A stretch of DNA of 64,000 nt from Candidatus Adlerbacteria bacterium (GCA_029288895.1 JARIGK010000004.1:175866-239865); one strand, 5' to 3'; counted from the stretch's first letter, positions 6,626 through 56,143 are shown. The notes: generated by a model not told the origin, from the letters alone. Program-made: numbers and translations.

Positions 6626-7654
6626 GTGCGGATGAAAATTGCACAGATTGCGCCCATTGTTGAGCGCGTCCCACCGAAGAAATACGGCGGCACCGAACGT
6701 GTAGTCCACGCCCTTGTAGAAGAGCTCGTGCGCCGCGGCCACGAGGTGACGCTGTTTGCCAGCGGCGACTCAGAAACATCCGCGACGCTGCATTCTGTCT
6801 ACCCGCGCGCCTTGCGTGATGCACGTATCGCCGATGTCTATGGTGCCAACTCGTGGACGCTCTTGAACATTGCGATGGCGTACGAGATGCAAGACGAGTT
6901 CGATATCATCCACGACCACACCATACCGTTGTCGCTTCCTACAGCCAACATTGCCACCACGCCTGTTGTTGCCACCATGCACGGGCCCTTTAGCGCCGCG
7001 AACCGCAGACTCTTCCAAACACTACGCGGCCCTGGCATTGTGAGCATTTCTGAATCACAAATATTTTCAGCGCCGGGCATCAACCACGTCGCAACCGTCT
7101 ACAACGGCTTGCCTATGGAACACTACCCGTTTGGCGAAACAGCAGGGGACTATTTGCTCTACGTCGGGCGTTTTTCGATGGAGAAGGGCGTACACTACGC
7201 CATCGAAGTTGCCGAGCAGCTCGACATGCCGCTTATCATTGCGGCAAAGCTCGACCCGGGCGACCAGGCGTATTTTCGAAATTATATCGAGCCTCGACTC
7301 TCGGACCGTGTGCGTTGGGTGGGCGAAGTCGACGAAGAGGAACGCAATAAATTAATGGCGGGTGCTAAATGCTTTTTGCACCCAGTGACGTGGCGTGAGC
7401 CGTTTGGCCTCACGTTGATAGAGGCGATGGCGTGCGGCTGCCCGGTTGTAGCATTTAACCGCGGCTCCATACCAGAAATTGTGCAGACAGGGGTGACGGG
7501 CTTTGTCGTCGAAGATACCGACTCGATGATCGATGCGGTGAGCGCCATCGGCGACATCAGCCGCGCCGCGTGCCGCGAACATGCGCTCTCAAAATTCAAT
7601 GTCAAAAATATGGCCGATGCGTACGAAGCGGTGTACCAAAAGATGGTGCCGTAA
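6626..7654 (+). CDS. Glycosyltransferase, family 4 (GT-B, retaining)
   Basis: 342 aa; N-terminal acceptor domain and a C-terminal EX7E-type motif (EPFGLTLIEAMACGCPVVAF). Confidence 0.8.
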   Translation: MRMKIAQIAPIVERVPPKKYGGTERVVHALVEELVRRGHEVTLFASGDSETSATLHSVYPRALRDARIADVYGANSWTLLNIAMAYEMQDEFDIIHDHTIPLSLPTANIATTPVVATMHGPFSAANRRLFQTLRGPGIVSISESQIFSAPGINHVATVYNGLPMEHYPFGETAGDYLLYVGRFSMEKGVHYAIEVAEQLDMPLIIAAKLDPGDQAYFRNYIEPRLSDRVRWVGEVDEEERNKLMAGAKCFLHPVTWREPFGLTLIEAMACGCPVVAFNRGSIPEIVQTGVTGFVVEDTDSMIDAVSAIGDISRAACREHALSKFNVKNMADAYEAVYQKMVP

Positions 7655-10556: not shown

Positions 10557-11003
10557 TCCCAAAAACTCTCTATACAATTTGCGGTGGAGGCCGAAGAAAT
10601 CTGGCATTGCATCGACAAGGTCGATAGGGAATTCCTGAGTTTCAAAAAACTCATCTTCATCTTTACCTGGAAATTTTTTTCCAGATAGGTCCCGAAGACG
10701 GCAATACGGAAGACGTGTTTTGTAGAAATACTGAAGATGAGGATTCGCTCCGTATACGGTATACGGTTTACGGACCTCTTCGATGCATACTTCGGGGTCG
10801 CCTCGGTTGGCGAGCCAAAAGCCACCTTCTTCCCACAGTGCGCGAATCACGGCGTCGATTTCGGACTCGCCTTCGTGCATCCCTTCGCCGATAAATTTCC
10901 ACGCATTCTCCGACTTCTTCAGATCTTTGATGAGCAACAGCGTGTCGGGCTGGCGGCTATAGATGGCGAGCATCATAACCGGGAGCCCAAAGTTTGTGTG
11001 CAT
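10545..11003 (-). CDS. NUDIX hydrolase
   Basis: Nudix box GEGMHEGESEIDAVIRALWEEGG (G-x5-E-x7-R[AE]-x2-EE-x-G), 152 aa. Confidence 0.7.
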   Translation of the reverse strand: MHTNFGLPVMMLAIYSRQPDTLLLIKDLKKSENAWKFIGEGMHEGESEIDAVIRALWEEGGFWLANRGDPEVCIEEVRKPYTVYGANPHLQYFYKTRLPYCRLRDLSGKKFPGKDEDEFFETQEFPIDLVDAMPDFFGLHRKLYREFLGYTA

Positions 11004-15782: not shown

Positions 15783-15853
15783 TGCCAGATCGTCTAATGG
15801 TAGGACAACGGACTCTGAATCCGTTTATCTTGGTTCGAATCCAAGTCTGGCAG
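15783..15853 (+). tRNA. tRNA-Gln (CTG)
   Basis: U1-A72 acceptor TGCCAGA/TCTGGCA, anticodon stem ACGGA/TCCGT with loop CTCTGAA, T-arm CTTGGTTCGAATCCAAG. Confidence 0.8.
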
Positions 15854-15919
15854 CAGCTTAGTTTAGTATCGGACGACCAAGAGGGGTCAGGAGCTAACAA
15901 CTAATGTACTATTCCTAGT

Positions 15920-16516
15920 ATGGAATATAAATTTGTACTTGGCACTCTTGCGGCGCTTTTTGCCATAGGTAGCGCATATCTCTATATTCGGGATATATTC
16001 CGCGGTAATACAAAACCTCATACCTACACATGGATTATATGGTCCATTGTTACCGCCATTGGGTTTCTTGGACAATGGTATACCGGTGGAGGAGCAGGCT
16101 CATGGGCCACAGGGGTGACAGCTTGTTACTGTTTCATCATTCTGTTTCTTTGCTTCAAATATGGAACAAGCGATATTACGAAGTTTGATCTACTGTGTTT
16201 GGTTCTGGCAATTACCTCTATTGTCCCGTGGCTCTTCTCCCACAATATTTTGTGGTCTGTAATTTTAGCAACAATAACTGATCTACTTGGCTTTCTTCCT
16301 ACAATACGAAAAACATGGCGCGCTCCGCGTAGTGAATCACTCGGGTCACTCTGGTTCGACGTTTTTAAACACGGGCTTTCTGTTGCGTCACTTCAAACGT
16401 ATTCACTTACTACATGGTTGTATCCAGCCGCTATTATCATTGCAAAGATGATGCAGGTGGTCGAAATATCGTATTTACGGTTTCTACGAAAGGAACATAA
16501 GGCGGCTCAAGTATAA
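15920..16516 (+). CDS. Multi-TM membrane protein, paralog 2
   Basis: YLYIRDIFRGNTKPHTYTW..., FDLLCLVLAITSIVPW, LPTIRKTWRAP motifs shared with 7710..8306; AT-richer than its neighbours. Confidence 0.55.
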   Translation: MEYKFVLGTLAALFAIGSAYLYIRDIFRGNTKPHTYTWIIWSIVTAIGFLGQWYTGGGAGSWATGVTACYCFIILFLCFKYGTSDITKFDLLCLVLAITSIVPWLFSHNILWSVILATITDLLGFLPTIRKTWRAPRSESLGSLWFDVFKHGLSVASLQTYSLTTWLYPAAIIIAKMMQVVEISYLRFLRKEHKAAQV

Positions 16517-16524
16517 TTATCTAT

Positions 16525-17151
16525 ATGAGCGAAGTATTTTTGGGTTTACCGATTGCACACTGGCTCGTCCTTCTTTCCATCGGCATCAGTTCAACAGGAG
16601 GCATAACCTACCTCCTCAACATGTTTCGAGGAAAATCCAAACCCAACTTGGTTTCGTGGGGTCTGTGGGGCTTGGCCCCACTTATTGCAACAGGAGCGGC
16701 TATTTCGGCTCATGCCGATTTGTGGGGCACTGCACGTGTTTTTATTTCTGGTTTTGTACCGTTCGTTATTTTTATGTTCGGTCTGTTTTTGAAGCAAAGT
16801 TACTGGAAACTCACTCGCTTCGACTTCTTCTGTGGAGTACTTTCCGTAATTGCTCTAATTGCATGGCTTATTGCTCATGCTCCCGTTGCGGCAATTTTGT
16901 TCGCGATAGCTGCAGACTTGTTTGCCTCAGTGCCGACTCTAGTAAAAGGATGGCAAAGCCCTCATACCGAAACGGCAACCGTTTTTCTTACAAGCCTCAT
17001 ATCATCTCTCATCACAATCCCTGCTATCCCAGTTTGGAATCTTGAAAACACCGCATTTCAAGCGTATCTGATTATTGTAAATCTGGCTTTGTTTGGAGTC
17101 ATAACTTTAGGTAAACTCCTAAAGCCAACACAAAGTGTTTCGACTCAATAG
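16525..17151 (+). CDS. Multi-TM membrane protein, paralog 3 (tandem with paralog 2)
   Basis: LNMFRGKSKPNLVSWGLW, FDFFCGVLSVIALIAW, VPTLVKGWQSPHTE motifs. Confidence 0.55.
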   Translation: MSEVFLGLPIAHWLVLLSIGISSTGGITYLLNMFRGKSKPNLVSWGLWGLAPLIATGAAISAHADLWGTARVFISGFVPFVIFMFGLFLKQSYWKLTRFDFFCGVLSVIALIAWLIAHAPVAAILFAIAADLFASVPTLVKGWQSPHTETATVFLTSLISSLITIPAIPVWNLENTAFQAYLIIVNLALFGVITLGKLLKPTQSVSTQ

Positions 17152-17239
17152 TTCCGAACCCATCTAACCATTGCAGCCAGTAAAATTTTTGCAGTGAAAT
17201 AAGGATATTTTGGATAGGATGATTGGATGATCAGAACTG
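17150..17239 (+). repeat. Intergenic repeat element A, copy 1 (supplies the start codon of the downstream gene)
   Basis: AGTTCCGAACCCATCTAACCATTGCAGCCAGTAAAATTTTTGCAGTGAAATAAGGATATTTTGGATAGGATGATTGGATGATCAGAACTG; near-identical copies at 18314, 19177 and a partial copy at 17738. Confidence 0.75.
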
Positions 17240-17685
17240 CTATACTTCCTGTAATGGAAAAGAGAATACCGGCACTTACGCCAGAGTTAAAAATCACTGA
17301 CTTTAAGAAGAGTCTAAAATTTTATACTACACTCGCTGGTTTTGATATTGAGTACGAACGTCCTGAAGACGAATTCGCAATGCTCAGCAAAGGAGATGCA
17401 TGGATTATGATTGAATCCATTAGCGATAAAAGTCGCATAATGAAAGCAGGGGCTCTCGAGTATCCTTTTGGGCGCGGCATGCATTTTCAGATACAGGTTG
17501 AAGATGTGCAGTCGCTCTACGATACTTTTAAAAGCAATTCTCATCCTATCTTCTCCGAAATGGAAGATAAGTGGTATCGAACAGGCGAGACCGAGGGAGG
17601 GAATAGGCAATTTTGGGTACAAGACCCTGACGGCTACATGCTGCGCTTCTATCAGGACTTAGGTTCTAGGCCTTTTCAGAAGTAG
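17227..17685 (+). CDS. VOC-family protein (glyoxalase / bleomycin-resistance-like)
   Basis: 152 aa with beta-alpha-beta-beta-beta-like modules (KITDFKKSLKFYTTLAGFDI..., WVQDPDGYMLRF); start codon lies inside repeat A copy 1. Confidence 0.6.
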   Translation: MIRTAILPVMEKRIPALTPELKITDFKKSLKFYTTLAGFDIEYERPEDEFAMLSKGDAWIMIESISDKSRIMKAGALEYPFGRGMHFQIQVEDVQSLYDTFKSNSHPIFSEMEDKWYRTGETEGGNRQFWVQDPDGYMLRFYQDLGSRPFQK

Positions 17686-17691
17686 CAGTCC

Positions 17692-17765
17692 AGTTCCGAA
17701 CGACACTAAAATAATCAGTATGGATTTGTATCAAATTGATTCCGAACCCATCTAACCATTGCAGC
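17692..17765 (+). repeat. Repeat element A, truncated copy 2: an isolated AGTTCCGAAC half, then ...TTCCGAACCCATCTAACCATTGCAGC fused to the next gene start
   Basis: AGTTCCGAAC at 17692-17701 directly after the VOC stop; the first 26 bp of element A at 17740-17765 are followed immediately by ATG 17767. Confidence 0.6.
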
Positions 17766-17766
17766 A

Positions 17767-18288
17767 ATGAAAAAGATTTATATAACGGGAGTTTCAGGGA
17801 CAGGAAAAACTACCATTGCACATGAATTAGAAAAGAGGGGCTACCTTGTTGTGAGTATTGATGAGGTGTCAGGGCTGTGCTCATGGACGCATCAAGAGAC
17901 AGGAGAAAAACATGGCGGCAAAGATACGCCCCTCACTAAAGAATTTGTTGATGCCCATGATTGGATTGTAGATATCGAACACTTGAATAAACTTCTCGAT
18001 AAAGATGTCGAAGTGGCGTTTGTACTAGGTATGGCTGGTAATCAGAATGAGTTCTTGCCATCATTCGATAAAATCTTATTGCTAGAATGTAACCCCGAAA
18101 CCTTCAGTGCGAGAATTGACGCACGAACAGACAATGATTTTGGTAAAGACCCACAAATCAAAGCTCAAATTCTCAACCGCTATAAAACTTACGGGGAAGA
18201 GATGCGTTCGCGAGGTGCTATTGTTGTAAATACCGATAGGCCTATTGATGCGGTGGTCAAAGATGTTATTGCTCAAGCCAATGCATAA
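17767..18288 (+). CDS. P-loop NTPase, small kinase-like (adenylate/shikimate-kinase fold)
   Basis: Walker A ITGVSGTGKTTIAHEL at the extreme N-terminus; 173 aa. Confidence 0.6.
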   Translation: MKKIYITGVSGTGKTTIAHELEKRGYLVVSIDEVSGLCSWTHQETGEKHGGKDTPLTKEFVDAHDWIVDIEHLNKLLDKDVEVAFVLGMAGNQNEFLPSFDKILLLECNPETFSARIDARTDNDFGKDPQIKAQILNRYKTYGEEMRSRGAIVVNTDRPIDAVVKDVIAQANA

Positions 18289-18313
18289 AAACCTTTGCTT
18301 CTTGCCAGTACGG

Positions 18314-18403
18314 AGTTCTGAACTTATCTAACTCGGGCAGCCAGTAAAATTTTTGCAGTGAAATAAGGATATTTTGGATAGGATGATTGGATTATCAGAA
18401 CTG
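18314..18403 (+). repeat. Repeat element A, copy 3 (internal ATG mutated to ATT)
   Basis: AGTTCTGAACTTATCTAACTCGGGCAGCCAGTAAAATTTTTGCAGTGAAATAAGGATATTTTGGATAGGATGATTGGATTATCAGAACTG. Confidence 0.75.
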
Positions 18404-18474
18404 ATTGATATTAGTTAGTCAGTCTTGTATAACTCCCTACAGCCATAAGTTCCATTTTTTCGAGAGGATGACAG

Positions 18475-19086
18475 ATGAACGATCTTGTTAAAGGTCTCGT
18501 TCGCAAGGAAAATATGTTGCAAGAGCTTCTTTCGTTGCCTCGCGACCAACTGGGCAAGGCGATCCAGAGAATCCAGGCCGAGGCTGAAGCGCAGAGTGCC
18601 TTCAAGTTGGGACAGCTCGTTCGAACTTGCAATTCTCCGGGCATCTCACTCGTGGGTGGCCTCAGCGAACTTCCGCACGACCACAATGACCCAAAGCAGC
18701 ATTCCAATACGCGTGTCGTGGGCTGGAATTCTTTTGGTGAAATTGAAGTCGCCACTTCTTACGGGAGTAACCCACATTGTTGCAAGTGGACGCATAGTGA
18801 AAGCAAGATGATTCCTTGCGAGGACGCCGACTGGGCTACTCAAAGTCTTCGCAAACGCGACGAAAAAGTCTCCTACGTATGGGAGCTTCGCGGATTTTGG
18901 GAGGCTGACAATCATGTCGGTGAAGTGGTGCCGGCGATTCTTGTTGTTCCTCACATTAAGGAAGGAGATTGGATCGTACGCTATGCCAAGCCGCATAAGC
19001 GACACGACTGGATCATCCGCGTCATCAACGAGAAACAGATGCTCCCGTCTCTCCCCGACAACGAGTACCCCGCCTCCGACGAATAG
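18475..19086 (+). CDS. Hypothetical protein
   Basis: 203-aa ORF downstream of repeat A copy 3; no recognisable motif. Confidence 0.5.
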   Translation: MNDLVKGLVRKENMLQELLSLPRDQLGKAIQRIQAEAEAQSAFKLGQLVRTCNSPGISLVGGLSELPHDHNDPKQHSNTRVVGWNSFGEIEVATSYGSNPHCCKWTHSESKMIPCEDADWATQSLRKRDEKVSYVWELRGFWEADNHVGEVVPAILVVPHIKEGDWIVRYAKPHKRHDWIIRVINEKQMLPSLPDNEYPASDE

Positions 19087-19093
19087 TCGTGGG

Positions 19094-19137
19094 CGTTTTT
19101 CTTTTCCTTTGTTCTGAAGCACCTATGTTAAAATTTC
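19094..19137 (+). repeat. Repeat element B, copy 1 (T-rich tract + TTGTTCTGAAGCACCTATGTTAAAATTTC)
   Basis: Shares a ~30-bp identical core with 20012..20054; contains an extended -10-like TGTTAAAAT. Confidence 0.6.
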
Positions 19138-19176
19138 GGTATTGGAAGCTCAGTTGTTGTTTTGAGCCACGAAACT

Positions 19177-19265
19177 GTTCCGAACCCATCTCACCATTGC
19201 AGCCAGTAAAATTTTTGTTAAGAAATAAGGGTATTTTGGATAGGTAAATTGGATGATTAGAACTT
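19177..19265 (+). repeat. Repeat element A, copy 4 (its internal ATG opens a 19-codon mini-ORF, MIRTLERFNLLNAEILFVW)
   Basis: TGTTCCGAACCCATCTCACCATTGCAGCCAGTAAAATTTTTGTTAAGAAATAAGGGTATTTTGGATAGGTAAATTGGATGATTAGAACTT. Confidence 0.7.
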
Positions 19266-19401
19266 TAGAACGATTTAATCTATTAAATGCAGAAATTCTT
19301 TTTGTTTGGTAGCCTGTCAGAGGAGTAATCTTGCTCCAGCTCCGAGCCCTATAGCGGAATGCTGGGCTCATATTGCAGTGGAATACTGCAAGGAGAGAAC
19401 A

Positions 19402-19980
19402 ATGAAAGTCTCAACCGAAGCGCAGATTGCGCAGTTCATTCAAGAGTATCCCATCCTCGAGAAGCCAATTGAGATATTGCGCAGGAGAGCGAGCGGCGGG
19501 AATAATGTCGCCTTGCGTATTCACATCGCGGTCAAACGCATGGATACGCTGATGCCTTACTTTGTGGGGAACCCGACCAAACCACGTGCGTGGATTCCAG
19601 GTGAGGGTATCAACAAGGGTCTCGACGGCACTGAAGAAGCGCGAGCATATGTCTATTGGCCAATGGCGCACGAGCCGCTCCACTTTCTTTTTGAGTGGTC
19701 TCCAGGAGATGCCCATAAACTCGGGAACCTGCTGCTCGGTATCAAACCCGAAGAAATCGGGCACGTGGTCATCGAGACCTGCTATGTCTGGCATGAGCGC
19801 AGGAAGGATATCACATGGGAAAGTATTGTTGGGCGCACTCCCATGCGGGCGATAGAGGCTACGTTCGTAGTCTTGTTACCGCCTAAGAGCGGGACGGTGG
19901 CGGAGCTGTTCGAAAAAGCTAAACGGGAACATCCTGAACTGAAAACACCCAAGGAGCACGTTGAGTTTCTGAATCGTTAG
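19402..19980 (+). CDS. Hypothetical protein
   Basis: Shine-Dalgarno AAGGAGAG 6 nt before ATG 19402; 192 aa; strong terminator follows. Confidence 0.55.
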   Translation: MKVSTEAQIAQFIQEYPILEKPIEILRRRASGGNNVALRIHIAVKRMDTLMPYFVGNPTKPRAWIPGEGINKGLDGTEEARAYVYWPMAHEPLHFLFEWSPGDAHKLGNLLLGIKPEEIGHVVIETCYVWHERRKDITWESIVGRTPMRAIEATFVVLLPPKSGTVAELFEKAKREHPELKTPKEHVEFLNR

Positions 19981-19988
19981 GACATCGC

Positions 19989-20012
19989 GGGCCGCCCTTC
20001 TTTTGGGCGGCC
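19989..20012 (+). terminator. Rho-independent terminator
   Basis: GGGCCGCCC-ttctttt-GGGCGGCC followed by TTTTCTTTTT (the T-run continues into element B). Confidence 0.65.
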
Positions 20013-20054
20013 TTTTCTTTTTAATTTGTTCTGAAGCACCTATGTTAAAATTTC
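20012..20054 (+). repeat. Repeat element B, copy 2
   Basis: CTTTTCTTTTTAATTTGTTCTGAAGCACCTATGTTAAAATTTC, 17 bp before ATG 20072. Confidence 0.6.
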
Positions 20055-20071
20055 AGTTAAGAGCTTAAAGT

Positions 20072-20587
20072 ATGAGAGCCAAAACTGTACGTGTGAATGA
20101 CAGAATGCAGAAAGGGTACAGCTACACCCTGAGCGAGCCCGTGGGCAAAAATTTTGACCCGCGTTTCCAGCCCGACCTTACGCCAAAACAAATGCTCGCA
20201 CTTGGTGTGTTTGGCGGCGTCTACATGCGCGACTGCAGAAAAGAATTTCCAAAGGATTGGTTTGCGAAAGCCAAGTTTCAAACGAAAGGAGTGTATGAAC
20301 AAGATCCAACAATTAATTTTTTTAAGGTGAAGGCGAGTCAGTCGCTTAGCGAATGGAAGAGAAAAGGGTGGATATATAAAGACGACCCGCGCGGATGGTT
20401 CCAATGGTACTGCCGCTACTATATGGGGCGCCGCGGGGAGGATGACGAGCGGCAGATCAAACGCTGGGTTGCTATCCGTCGCCACATTGCGCAAATAGTA
20501 AAGAACTGCCGCAAGGGAGATTTTTCATGCCACTCAAAACAGCGGCAAGCTGTTCTTCACTGGGCGTACGACAGCAGGACGTTATAA
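20072..20587 (+). CDS. Hypothetical protein (Trp/Arg-rich)
   Basis: 171-aa ORF after element B copy 2; no recognisable motif. Confidence 0.5.
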   Translation: MRAKTVRVNDRMQKGYSYTLSEPVGKNFDPRFQPDLTPKQMLALGVFGGVYMRDCRKEFPKDWFAKAKFQTKGVYEQDPTINFFKVKASQSLSEWKRKGWIYKDDPRGWFQWYCRYYMGRRGEDDERQIKRWVAIRRHIAQIVKNCRKGDFSCHSKQRQAVLHWAYDSRTL

Positions 20588-20594
20588 TTGAGGT

Positions 20595-20996
20595 ATGAAA
20601 ACAGCGACGCAATATTTCCATTACAAAAAACCAACATGGGCGCCGCCGTCGTGGCTCTTTGGTCCCGTATGGACCGTGCTCTACATTCTTATCGCGATTT
20701 CGTTTGGATACGTTGGCTACTTGTGGTTTACGAATGCAATCACACCCCAAATACTTCTCCCGTTTGTACTCAACCTCATATTCAATTTTCTGTTTACTCC
20801 AATCCAATTTCGGTTGCGCAATTTTACGCTCGCTGCCGTCGATATCATACTGGTTTGGACAACCCTTGTATGGGCGCTGGTAACTATTTTGCCTATTGCA
20901 TCGTGGGTCGCGTACATTAACTTGCCATACCTTGCGTGGGTGAGCTTCGCCACCGTCTTGCAGTTCACGATTACTGCGATGAATAGAAAGGCGTAG
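20595..20996 (+). CDS. TspO/MBR family (tryptophan-rich sensory protein)
   Basis: KPTWAPPSWLFGPVWTVLYILIAISFGYV matches the TspO signature; 133 aa, 5 TM. Confidence 0.75.
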   Translation: MKTATQYFHYKKPTWAPPSWLFGPVWTVLYILIAISFGYVGYLWFTNAITPQILLPFVLNLIFNFLFTPIQFRLRNFTLAAVDIILVWTTLVWALVTILPIASWVAYINLPYLAWVSFATVLQFTITAMNRKA

Positions 20997-21063
20997 GTAC
21001 TTCACTCGTTCCCCAGAACGGGCAGGTACAATAGAGGGGTTATTTATTTTGTAAGAAAAAACT

Positions 21064-55570: not shown

Positions 55571-55660
55571 GGAGGCGTCGCATAGTGGTCTAGTGCACCG
55601 CCTTGGAAAGGCGGCATCGGGGAAACCTGATCGAGAGTTCGAATCTCTCCGCCTCCGCCA
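55571..55660 (+). tRNA. tRNA-Ser (GGA), long variable arm, CCA encoded
   Basis: GGAGGCG/CGCCTCC acceptor, anticodon stem CCGCC/GGCGG with loop TTGGAAA, variable arm ~18 nt, T-arm GAGAGTTCGAATCTCTC. Confidence 0.8.
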
Positions 55661-55687
55661 CGATGTGCTGTTTAACCAATTGAACAG

Positions 55688-56143
55688 ATGGGGCGTACTA
55701 CAATAGTATTTATGGCCACTATCAACGTACATATCAACTTTAATGGAAATGCAGAAGAAGCATTCAATTTTTATAAGTCAGTATTTGGCGGAGAATTTTC
55801 AAAAATTAGCCGTTTCAAGGATTTAGCAAGTGCTGACTTTACACCGGCACCGGAGGAAGGGAATAAAATAATGGTTATCGAGTTGCCTATTGGTAACAAT
55901 ATATTGAGCGCAAACGATGTCCCACAGCATTTGGGGCGTACAAACGAACACGAAAACAGAAGCAAGATTGCAGTTGCTGCAGAGAGCCGCGAAGAAGCAG
56001 AAACGCTATTCAACGGGCTTTCAGTTGGGGGAGAAGTAGAAATGCCGCTTGGCGATAGCCCTTGGGGGACCTACTTCGCAATGTTCCGAGATAGGTACGG
56101 CATCGAATGGATGATTGAGTTTGATTCAAAAAATATAGATTAA
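55688..56143 (+). CDS. VOC-family protein (PhnB / glyoxalase-like)
   Basis: INVHINFNGNAEEAFNFYKSVFGG...PWGTYFAMFRDRYGIEWMI typical of PhnB-like VOC proteins; strongly AT-rich. Confidence 0.6.
   Translation: MGRTTIVFMATINVHINFNGNAEEAFNFYKSVFGGEFSKISRFKDLASADFTPAPEEGNKIMVIELPIGNNILSANDVPQHLGRTNEHENRSKIAVAAESREEAETLFNGLSVGGEVEMPLGDSPWGTYFAMFRDRYGIEWMIEFDSKNID

What the first reader, a model, noticed from the sequence alone, without database searches (positions are those of the whole stretch)
19094..20054. Element B: second repeated intergenic module with an extended -10-like box placed 17-20 bp before two unrelated genes
TTGTTCTGAAGCACCTATGTTAAAATTTC (preceded by a T-rich tract) occurs at 19109-19137 and 20027-20054. 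TGTTAAAAT fits an extended -10 (TGnTAAAAT). The leading TTGTTCTGAAG resembles the GTTCYGAAC core of element A. Together with element A, the island seems to use portable promoter or junction modules, one per cassette.
Basis: seen in the sequence. Interest (0 to 1): 0.5.

Follow-up and report, generated by a model that had tools for sequence, protein, structure and literature searches.

The report
Repeated terminator-proximal promoter-like junction module
A 29-base sequence found twice in a variable gene island of an uncultivated Patescibacteria bacterium is real, is conserved in a related genome, and is most likely a copied promoter sitting just behind a terminator, though only one copy lies directly in front of a gene.

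Summary
The repeat is real. An exact 29-mer lies at 19109-19137 and 20026-20054 (0 of 100 shuffles reach 2 matches). The "T-rich tract" before each copy is the U-tract of an intrinsic terminator.

The placement claim holds for copy 2 only, which ends 17 nt before the ATG of a conserved Patescibacteria gene. Copy 1 is 264 nt from the next ORF, with element A3 in between.

A third copy sits at the orthologous position in another genome (L086). There TTTGTTCTGAAGCA and TGTTAAAAT are invariant, while the 4-nt spacer and the flanks differ.

TGnTAnnnT is this genome's promoter signature (11 vs 1.9 expected upstream of genes). In relatives, TGnTAWAAT often lies 5-10 nt before ATGs. So an extended -10 promoter is the best reading.

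B's 5' half equals the 5' end of element A, the junction repeat of a cassette-like array after tRNA-Gln. The flanking genes are unrelated, so this is not a tandem duplication.

B is not "one per cassette". It is not an integron attC, and no recombinase domain was found among the window ORFs screened. No transcript data exist. This is an ordinary kind of element in an interesting context.

The parts
19109..19137 (+). Element B copy 1 (exact 29-mer; the extended family spans 19092-19140). It has no adjacent ORF and is followed by a linker and element A3.
   Evidence: An orthologous copy lies in L086 at 10635-10668.
20026..20054 (+). Element B copy 2 (exact 29-mer; the extended family spans 20009-20057). 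It ends 17 nt before ATG 20072.
19126..19134 (+). Extended -10-like box TGTTAAAAT of copy 1. The predicted transcription start is about 19141-19142 (inferred).
   Evidence: Invariant in L086.
20043..20051 (+). Extended -10-like box TGTTAAAAT of copy 2. The predicted transcription start is about 20058-20059, giving a leader of about 13 nt that contains AAGAG (inferred).
   Evidence: It is one of 11 TGnTAnnnT hits in the 60-nt windows upstream of genes.
19111..19118 (+). Core GTTCTGAA of copy 1, shared with the 5' end of element A.
20028..20035 (+). Core GTTCTGAA of copy 2.
19071..19108 (+). Intrinsic-terminator hairpin of gene 5 (19071-19095) plus its U-tract.
   Evidence: The hairpin and tract are conserved in L086.
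19989..20025 (+). Intrinsic-terminator hairpin of gene 6 (19989-20013; 9 pairs, 8 of them G-C) plus its U-tract.
   Evidence: One search gives z = -2.9 for the segment.
19160..19175 (+). Conserved linker block TTTTGAGCCACGAAAC between B copy 1 and A3.
   Evidence: Also present in L086, and in L003 next to a tRNA-Gln T-loop fragment.
19176..19265 (+). Element A copy 3.
18314..18403 (+). Element A copy 2. It is the left edge of the block shared with L086.
17150..17239 (+). Element A copy 1.
17693..17765 (+). A lone core (GTTCCGAAC...TAAAAT) plus a 5' fragment of A (17740-17765) that stops at GCAGC right before the gene 4 ATG.
18475..19086 (+). Gene 5 (203 aa, no Pfam domain). It is upstream of B copy 1 and has an 88% identical homolog in L086.
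19402..19980 (+). Gene 6 (192 aa, near-orphan). It lies between the two B copies.
20072..20996 (+). Gene 7 (20072-20587, a conserved Patescibacteria hypothetical protein) and TspO (20595-20996). This is the unit that B copy 2 would drive.
15783..15854 (+). tRNA-Gln(CTG), at the left edge of the low-GC variable island (about 15855-21000).

Best explanation
B is a short intergenic module with two conserved halves, placed directly behind the intrinsic terminator of the preceding gene.

The 3' half, TGTTAAAAT, is a sigma-70-type extended -10 promoter that needs no -35 box. At copy 2 it restarts transcription after the gene 6 terminator and drives gene 7 and TspO through a leader of about 13 nt. 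At copy 1, and at its ortholog in L086, it fires into a linker and element A, which then form a long 5' leader for the next gene.

The 5' half, (AA)TTTGTTCTGAAGCA, is the same sequence as the 5' end of element A. Element A is the junction repeat that separates genes in this cassette-like array downstream of tRNA-Gln.

The two identical copies in the window most likely arose by recombination or gene conversion between such junction repeats when the gene 6 unit was placed. They did not arise by tandem duplication or by transposition of B on its own.

Shown: the repeat, the terminators, the conservation pattern, and the genome-wide promoter signature. Inferred: promoter activity, the transcription start sites, and how the copies arose.
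For: 1. The repeat is non-random.
2. Both copies follow terminator hairpins with U-tracts.
3. An ortholog exists in L086, inside an 84%-identical 962-nt block: A, gene 5, terminator, B, linker, A.
4. Across the three B copies, TTTGTTCTGAAGCA and TGTTAAAAT are invariant. The 4-nt spacer differs (CCTA vs TAAG), and the sequence after the -10 box diverges between the window and L086.
5. In the window, TGnTAnnnT occurs 11 times in the 60 nt upstream of genes and tRNAs, against 1.9 expected (P about 6e-6). B copy 2 is one of these hits.
6. In about 1 Mb of relatives' loci, 41 of 214 TGnTAWAAT sites lie 5-10 nt upstream of an ATG that opens an ORF of at least 80 aa, and 26 lie 11-30 nt upstream. Scrambled motifs give 0-1 and 3-10.
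7. Relatives show the same layout of terminator, U-tract, TGnTAnAAT, then ATG, for example in L027.
8. Genes 5 and 6 are not paralogs. The only DNA shared by the two units is A and B.
9. The 5' flanks are mosaic. B2 and L086-B share TAATTTG, while B1 equals B2 in the spacer. That points to exchange among family members.
Against: - There are no transcript data.
- Copy 1 has no gene within 264 nt. Gene 6 appears to have its own extended -10-like box (TGGTAGCCT, 19307-19315) and its own conserved leader hairpin, so copy 1 may be redundant or may serve another purpose.
- The exact motif TGnTAWAAT is not enriched in this 52% GC window (3 hits, about 3 expected from base composition).
- Only three B copies are known in total, so the conservation argument rests on a single cross-genome comparison.
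- The conserved 5' half has no role in a promoter that lacks a -35 box, and it is not explained by the promoter reading.
Confidence: 0.55

Rival explanations
1. B is only a recombination junction: a truncated copy of the A-type, att-like site. The 29-nt identity would be the crossover region left when the unit of A3, gene 6 and its terminator was inserted. The TGTTAAAAT box would be incidental, or an arm-type protein-binding site, and not a promoter.
For: - B's first 14-17 nt match the 5' end of A.
- All repeats in the array start with the same core, which always lies just 3' of a gene.
- 5' fragments of A in two genomes always break at GCAGC(CAG). This mirrors the tRNA-Gln 3' end GGCAGC.
- Relatives carry exact partial tRNA-Gln copies around this tRNA.
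- The block TTTTGAGCCAC + core is homologous to an L003 site that contains a true T-loop fragment (0 of 300 shuffles).
- The two B copies directly flank a near-orphan gene.
Against: - No recombinase or transposase domain was found in any window ORF screened.
- The L086 array has no tRNA within the 15 kb examined.
- Similarity between the tRNA 3' part and A-left is marginal (p about 0.006-0.8, depending on copy and scoring), and B carries even less of it.
- This reading does not explain why TGTTAAAAT stays invariant while the adjacent spacer changes.
- It does not exclude promoter activity. The two readings are compatible.
Confidence: 0.25
2. B is a regulated promoter or operator. The near-palindrome GTTCnGAA(C/G), shared by A and B, would be the binding site of one transcription factor that co-regulates the island genes. 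Alternatively, copy 1 would be the promoter of a small RNA made from the linker and A.
For: - The core is a 9-nt palindrome in A (GTTCYGAAC). In B it lies just upstream of the -10 box, a typical operator position.
- In both genomes copy 1 sits about 40 nt upstream of an A element.
- A has two conserved complementary arms.
Against: - In B the palindrome is imperfect (GTTCTGAAG).
- A shows almost no compensatory changes, and its folding energy is no better than that of shuffles.
- There is no Rfam match.
- No terminator follows A.
- No candidate regulator lies in the island.
Confidence: 0.12
3. The repeat is a trivial product: chance, a simple tandem duplication, or an assembly artefact of a metagenome-assembled genome.
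For: - There are only two copies in the window, 917 nt apart.
- No further copies were found in any public collection searched.
Against: - 0 of 100 shuffles reach 2 matches.
- The flanking genes are unrelated.
- An independently assembled genome carries copy 1 in the same context.
Confidence: 0.03

Closest known systems
Extended -10 (TGn) sigma-70 promoters, including those of leaderless or short-leader mRNAs
   Same: The TGnTAAAAT box has no usable -35 box (the spacing from TTGTTC is 14 nt). It lies 20 nt before an ATG. The same motif class is enriched upstream of genes in this genome and its relatives.
   Different: The activity is untested. Copy 1 has no adjacent gene. The box is embedded in a repeated module whose other half is not a promoter element.
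Promoter plus stem-loop 'mobile regulatory cassettes' (PeSL) that flank variable ORFs in T4-type phage genomes (recalled from the literature; not tested here)
   Same: A terminator-like stem-loop is immediately followed by a promoter. The pair is repeated at the borders of unrelated small genes in a hyperplastic region, and recombination between the repeats is the proposed way genes get shuffled.
   Different: Here the context is a bacterial chromosome, not a phage. There is no sequence similarity. In this case only the promoter half and the core are repeated, while the two terminator stems differ.
Promoter-carrying MITEs and intergenic repeats such as Neisseria Correia elements (recalled from the literature)
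   Same: They are short repeated intergenic elements with terminal inverted repeats that can supply promoters. Element A has imperfect inverted ends of about 18 nt.
   Different: B has no inverted partner and no target-site duplication. Copy number is tiny. No transposase was found.
Integron gene-cassette arrays with attC sites
   Same: Unrelated small genes all lie on the same strand and are separated by a repeat. The repeat is more similar within a genome than between genomes.
   Different: B and A lack the R''/R' consensus (RYYYAAC...GTTRRRY). They show no strong single-strand hairpin and have no intI nearby. The genes here have their own terminators and promoter-like boxes.
Tandem accretion of integrative elements, or cis-mobilizable remnants (CIMEs), at tRNA genes (recalled from the literature)
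   Same: The island abuts tRNA-Gln. Relatives show displaced partial tRNA-Gln copies. The A 5' part weakly resembles the tRNA 3' end and breaks at the equivalent position.
   Different: The units are single genes of 0.6-1.3 kb. There is no integrase. The tRNA similarity is marginal. The L086 array is not next to a tRNA.

Membership tests
Extended -10 sigma-70 promoter | A TGn motif immediately upstream of a TAnnnT hexamer | tested here: met
   TGTTAAAAT at 19126-19134 and 20043-20051.
Extended -10 sigma-70 promoter | Position upstream of a transcription unit at a plausible distance | tested here: inconclusive
   Copy 2 lies 20 nt before ATG 20072, within the 6-24 nt range seen for other such boxes in the window. 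Copy 1 lies 267 nt from the next ATG.
Extended -10 sigma-70 promoter | The motif class is the promoter signature of the organism | tested here: met
   In the window, 11 hits against 1.9 expected upstream of genes. In relatives, 41 of 214 sites show leaderless geometry, against 0-1 for scrambled motifs.
Extended -10 sigma-70 promoter | A transcription start about 7 nt downstream, and activity that depends on the box | not testable with these tools
   No transcriptome or reporter data are available.
Integron attC site / cassette array | R'' RYYYAAC and R' GTTRRRY at the two ends | tested here: not met
   B has no inverted partner. A starts with GTTCYGA and ends with TCAGAAC, the opposite arrangement.
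Integron attC site / cassette array | A stable single-strand hairpin | tested here: not met
   The DNA folds of A are no better than shuffles (z from -0.35 to +2.1). In the folds of the B segments, the stable stem is the upstream terminator hairpin, not B.
Integron attC site / cassette array | An integron integrase next to the array | tested here: not met
   No recombinase Pfam domain was found in any window ORF screened.
MITE | Terminal inverted repeats, a target-site duplication and many copies | tested here: not met
   For B there is no inverted repeat and no duplication, and three copies are known. A has inverted ends, but no duplication was seen and it has at most 4 copies per locus.
tRNA-derived att remnant (tandem accretion at a tRNA gene) | Sequence identity to the 3' part of the adjacent tRNA | tested here: inconclusive
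   blastn-short finds nothing in the window. Permissive alignment of A-left gives p about 0.006-0.8. B shares only GTTCnGAA with the T-loop.
tRNA-derived att remnant (tandem accretion at a tRNA gene) | Location at a tRNA integration hotspot | tested here: met
   The island starts at tRNA-Gln. Relatives carry exact partial tRNA-Gln copies there. However, the L086 array has no tRNA within 15 kb.
Known RNA family (Rfam) | A covariance-model match | tested here: not met
   At gathering threshold only tRNAs match. Nothing meaningful appears at E<=1 in 17000-20200.

The most novel reading that the evidence does not exclude
A and B are the working sites of a previously undescribed gene-cassette exchange system in Patescibacteria that acts in trans. 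Single-gene units, each with its own promoter and terminator, would be inserted next to tRNA-Gln, and at secondary arrays as in L086, at junction repeats that mimic the T-arm-to-3'-end of tRNA-Gln. These repeats have the core GTTCYGAAC and break at GCAGC. B would be a shortened junction that also provides an outward extended -10 promoter for whatever lands downstream.
Probability: 0.15. Interest if true: 0.7.

Novelty: new member of a known kind. Interest (0 to 1): 0.35.

Why it matters
Almost nothing is known from experiments about promoters or gene flux in Patescibacteria (CPR), which have tiny genomes and few recognizable mobile elements.

This locus gives a concrete, testable promoter module. 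It also supports, from sequence alone, the view that extended -10 boxes, often in leaderless geometry, are the lineage's main promoter type.

The surrounding A/B junction repeats, shared by two genomes around different genes, mark a hotspot where single genes are swapped next to tRNA-Gln. If a dedicated recombination mechanism lies behind this, it would be a new route of gene acquisition in these organisms. If not, B is simply a duplicated promoter.

Tried and rejected
- Further copies of B. A 20-mer scan of GTDB species genomes and of IMG/VR gave one hit each, both chance hits with unrelated flanks. A 24-mer scan of JGI metagenomes gave none. A degenerate B pattern and an A-left pattern in IMG/VR gave none. 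blastn against phage and plasmid records gave none. A fuzzy search with up to 8 mismatches in the loci fetched up to that point found only the chance hits.
- The source contig. Exact-protein look-ups failed, so the rest of the genome could not be scanned.
- Integron attC reading. Rejected on consensus, folding and the absence of intI (and the Pfam calls).
- Classical -35/-10 promoter. The scan finds none at B, and TTGTTC is only 14 nt from the -10 box.
- Tandem duplication. Rejected because genes 5 and 6 are unrelated.
- B as the ancestral promoter of gene 7. Rejected. Close gene 7 homologs have other upstream sequences (L090 and L005) or are fused into operons (L003, L004 and L091).
- Phage attP carrying the tRNA-Gln 3' end. 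No IMG/VR match.
- A third window copy of B at 17693. It shares the core and TAAAAT, but the alignment is ambiguous.
- Literature searches on CPR cassettes and promoters found nothing relevant.
- The conserved mini-ORF (MIRT...) inside A is not conserved in L080, so it was dropped.

Full report
**1. The observation**

The 29-mer TTGTTCTGAAGCACCTATGTTAAAATTTC occurs exactly twice in the window, at 19109-19137 and 20026-20054 on the + strand. Even with 3 mismatches allowed there are no other copies, and no shuffle of the window reaches two matches. The repeat finder extends the similarity 17 nt upstream, giving a 49-nt family at 88% identity.

The upstream "T-rich tract" is not part of a mobile module. 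In both cases it is the U-tract of an intrinsic terminator that closes the preceding gene. The hairpins lie at 19071-19095 and 19989-20013 and have unrelated stems. Relatives end their genes with very similar tails such as GGCTTTTTCTTTTT.

The positional claim is half right. Copy 2 ends 17 nt before ATG 20072, and its TAAAAT ends 20 nt before it. Copy 1 is followed by 264 nt without any ORF start. Those 264 nt contain a conserved linker, element A3 (19176-19265), and then the ATG of gene 6 at 19402.

**2. Context**

The window comes from a Patescibacteria (Paceibacterota-like) genome. The closest named homologs of gene 7 carry those labels. A 100% identical protein sits on an unnamed 298-kb NCBI contig that could not be retrieved.

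FtsE, FtsX, PyrG and tRNA-Gln(CTG) (15783-15854) are followed by a lower-GC stretch, 41-50% against about 52%. It holds nine small genes, all on the + strand:
- two paralogous membrane proteins
- a glyoxalase/bleomycin-resistance-like protein
- a P-loop kinase-like protein
- two proteins with no Pfam domain (genes 5 and 6)
- a highly conserved hypothetical protein (gene 7, more than 8000 homologs at about 75-80% identity)
- TspO
- a weak YCII-like protein

PyrG followed by tRNA-Gln is conserved in dozens of relatives. The genes after the tRNA, however, are almost never the same. Several relatives carry exact partial copies of tRNA-Gln around the tRNA. The region is therefore a hotspot of gene turnover.

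No recombinase or transposase domain was found in any window ORF screened. Several ORFs have no Pfam match at all.

**3. B belongs to a small family of junction repeats**

Six of the seven GTTCYGAA sites in the window lie between 17151 and 20028. All six are on the + strand, and each lies just 3' of a gene. Three start the roughly 90-nt element A, one is a lone core at 17693, and two are the B copies.

Gene 5 has an 88% identical homolog on an independently assembled contig, L086. There the whole block of A, gene 5, terminator, B, linker and A recurs. Window 18315-19266 aligns to L086 9840-10796 at 84% identity, exactly from the first base of one A to the last base of the next. The neighbouring genes differ. 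In L086 they are a kinase-like gene upstream and an ECF-type sigma factor downstream.

L086 has two further 5' fragments of A. The closest PyrG relative, L080, has one A copy one gene after tRNA-Gln.

The L086 version of B reads TAATTTGTTCTGAAGCATAAGTGTTAAAATCC. Across the three copies:
- TTTGTTCTGAAGCA is invariant.
- TGTTAAAAT is invariant.
- The 4-nt spacer between them differs.
- The sequence after the box diverges.

**4. Promoter reading**

A classical -35/-10 scan finds nothing at B. However, extended -10 boxes are clearly the promoter type here.

In the window, TGnTAnnnT occurs 11 times in the 60 nt upstream of genes and tRNAs, against 1.9 expected (P about 6e-6). B copy 2 is among these hits, with a spacing typical of the others.

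In about 1 Mb of relatives' loci, TGnTAWAAT occurs 214 times. Of these, 41 lie 5-10 nt upstream of an ATG that opens an ORF of at least 80 aa, which is leaderless geometry. Another 26 lie 11-30 nt upstream. Scrambled motifs give 0-1 and 3-10.

Relatives also show the same arrangement of terminator, U-tract and box. L027, for example, has GGGCGGCCTTTTCTGTTATAAT followed 14 nt later by ATG.

Together with the invariance of TGTTAAAAT between genomes, this makes promoter function the best single explanation for the 3' half of B. At copy 2 it would restart transcription of gene 7 and TspO behind the gene 6 terminator.

Copy 1 is less clear. It would transcribe the linker and A3. Gene 6 seems to have its own box (TGGTAGCCT, 19307-19315) and its own leader hairpin (19344-19369). 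Both are conserved in position, and the hairpin shows compensatory changes, in a distant homolog. In L086 the equivalent B copy is the only obvious box ahead of the sigma-factor gene.

**5. How the copies arose**

Genes 5 and 6 are unrelated, and the only DNA the two units share is A and B. Gene 6 is nearly an orphan, with 4 distant homologs among 1.8 billion representatives.

Close homologs of gene 7 have different upstream regions, so B is not that gene's ancestral promoter.

B1 and B2 are identical in the spacer and the 3' end. In the 5' flank, however, B2 resembles L086-B more than B1 does. The A copies are likewise more similar within a genome than between genomes.

This mosaic pattern fits exchange or gene conversion among junction repeats. 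It does not fit one simple duplication.

**6. Junction/att reading (rival or complement)**

5' fragments of A in two genomes always stop at GCAGC(CAG). This is the same motif that ends tRNA-Gln (GGCAGC).

The linker plus core (TTTTGAGCCACGAAACTGTTCCGAACCC) is homologous to an L003 site in which the core is a true T-loop fragment (TTGGTTCGAATCC).

A also has two conserved complementary arms.

On the other side, the tRNA similarity is only marginal. A folds no better than shuffled sequence. There is no Rfam match. No recombinase is nearby, and the L086 array is not next to a tRNA.

Canonical integron attC features are absent. A dedicated cassette system therefore remains a minority reading.

**7. 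Verdict**

The repeat is real and non-random. It is best read as a terminator-proximal extended -10 promoter fused to the common 5' core of the island's junction repeats.

It is not "one per cassette", and it is not placed before two genes.

It is a new member of known kinds: an extended -10 promoter and a repeated intergenic regulatory or junction module. Its value lies mainly in the context, namely promoter architecture and gene turnover in Patescibacteria. All functional statements await 5'-end mapping.

Noticed in passing
window-wide; relatives' loci L003-L087: Extended -10 boxes look like the main promoter type of this lineage. In relatives, 41 of 214 TGnTAWAAT sites lie 5-10 nt before an ATG-started ORF, which is leaderless geometry, against 0-1 for scrambled motifs. 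In the window, TGnTAnnnT occurs 11 times upstream of genes against 1.9 expected.
   Followed up: yes
window 17150-17239, 18314-18403, 19176-19265, 17740-17765; L086 7435, 9840, 10706, 12865; L080 12856-12943: Element A is a roughly 90-nt repeat with two conserved complementary arms (GTTCTGA / CATCTAA ... TTGGATG / TCAGAAC). It is shared by three genomes and is more similar within a genome than between genomes. Its 5' fragments always break at GCAGC(CAG).
   Followed up: partly
window 19307-19369; L088 176-237: Gene 6 has its own extended -10-like box (TGGTAGCCT) and a 5' leader hairpin, GAGCCC-N14-GGGCTC. A 45% identical homolog keeps the hairpin with compensatory changes (GAGTCC...GGACTC) and an identical 14-nt loop.
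   Followed up: partly
L027 12420-13335; L066 2547-8815; L003 7484-9030; L032, L067, L048: Many Paceibacterota relatives carry exact partial copies of tRNA-Gln around the intact tRNA-Gln that follows PyrG. They include 3' fragments, some 5' fragments and inverted T-arm copies. This marks a recurrent insertion hotspot.
   Followed up: partly
window 19160-19175; L086 10691-10705; L003 7825 and 8937: A conserved block TTTTGAGCCACRRAA precedes the core in three genomes. In L003 it directly precedes a 13-nt true T-loop fragment of tRNA-Gln.
   Followed up: partly
window 20072-20587: Gene 7 is a 171-aa protein with no Pfam domain. It has more than 8000 homologs at about 75-80% identity across Patescibacteria and is often next to TspO. 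That is unusually strong conservation for an uncharacterized protein.
   Followed up: no
L086 1-95 and 5270-7300: The L086 locus starts with a large serine recombinase (Resolvase, Recombinase and Zn_ribbon domains). It lies about 5 kb from the A/B array, with purM and purL in between. A 50-nt perfect palindrome built on GTTCTGAAGT...ACTTCAGAAC sits at 7165-7214.
   Followed up: no
window 17693-17720: A lone core followed by TAAAAT (GTTCCGAACGACACTAAAAT), then a linker and a 5' fragment of A. This may be a degenerate third B-linker-A composite, but the alignment is ambiguous.
   Followed up: partly
window 55571-56143: tRNA-Ser(GGA) is immediately followed by a second glyoxalase-family gene. This may be another small accessory gene next to a tRNA.
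   Followed up: no
window 15920-17151: The first two island genes are distant paralogs (23% identity, E=7e-17). Both are multi-pass membrane proteins with no Pfam match.
   Followed up: no
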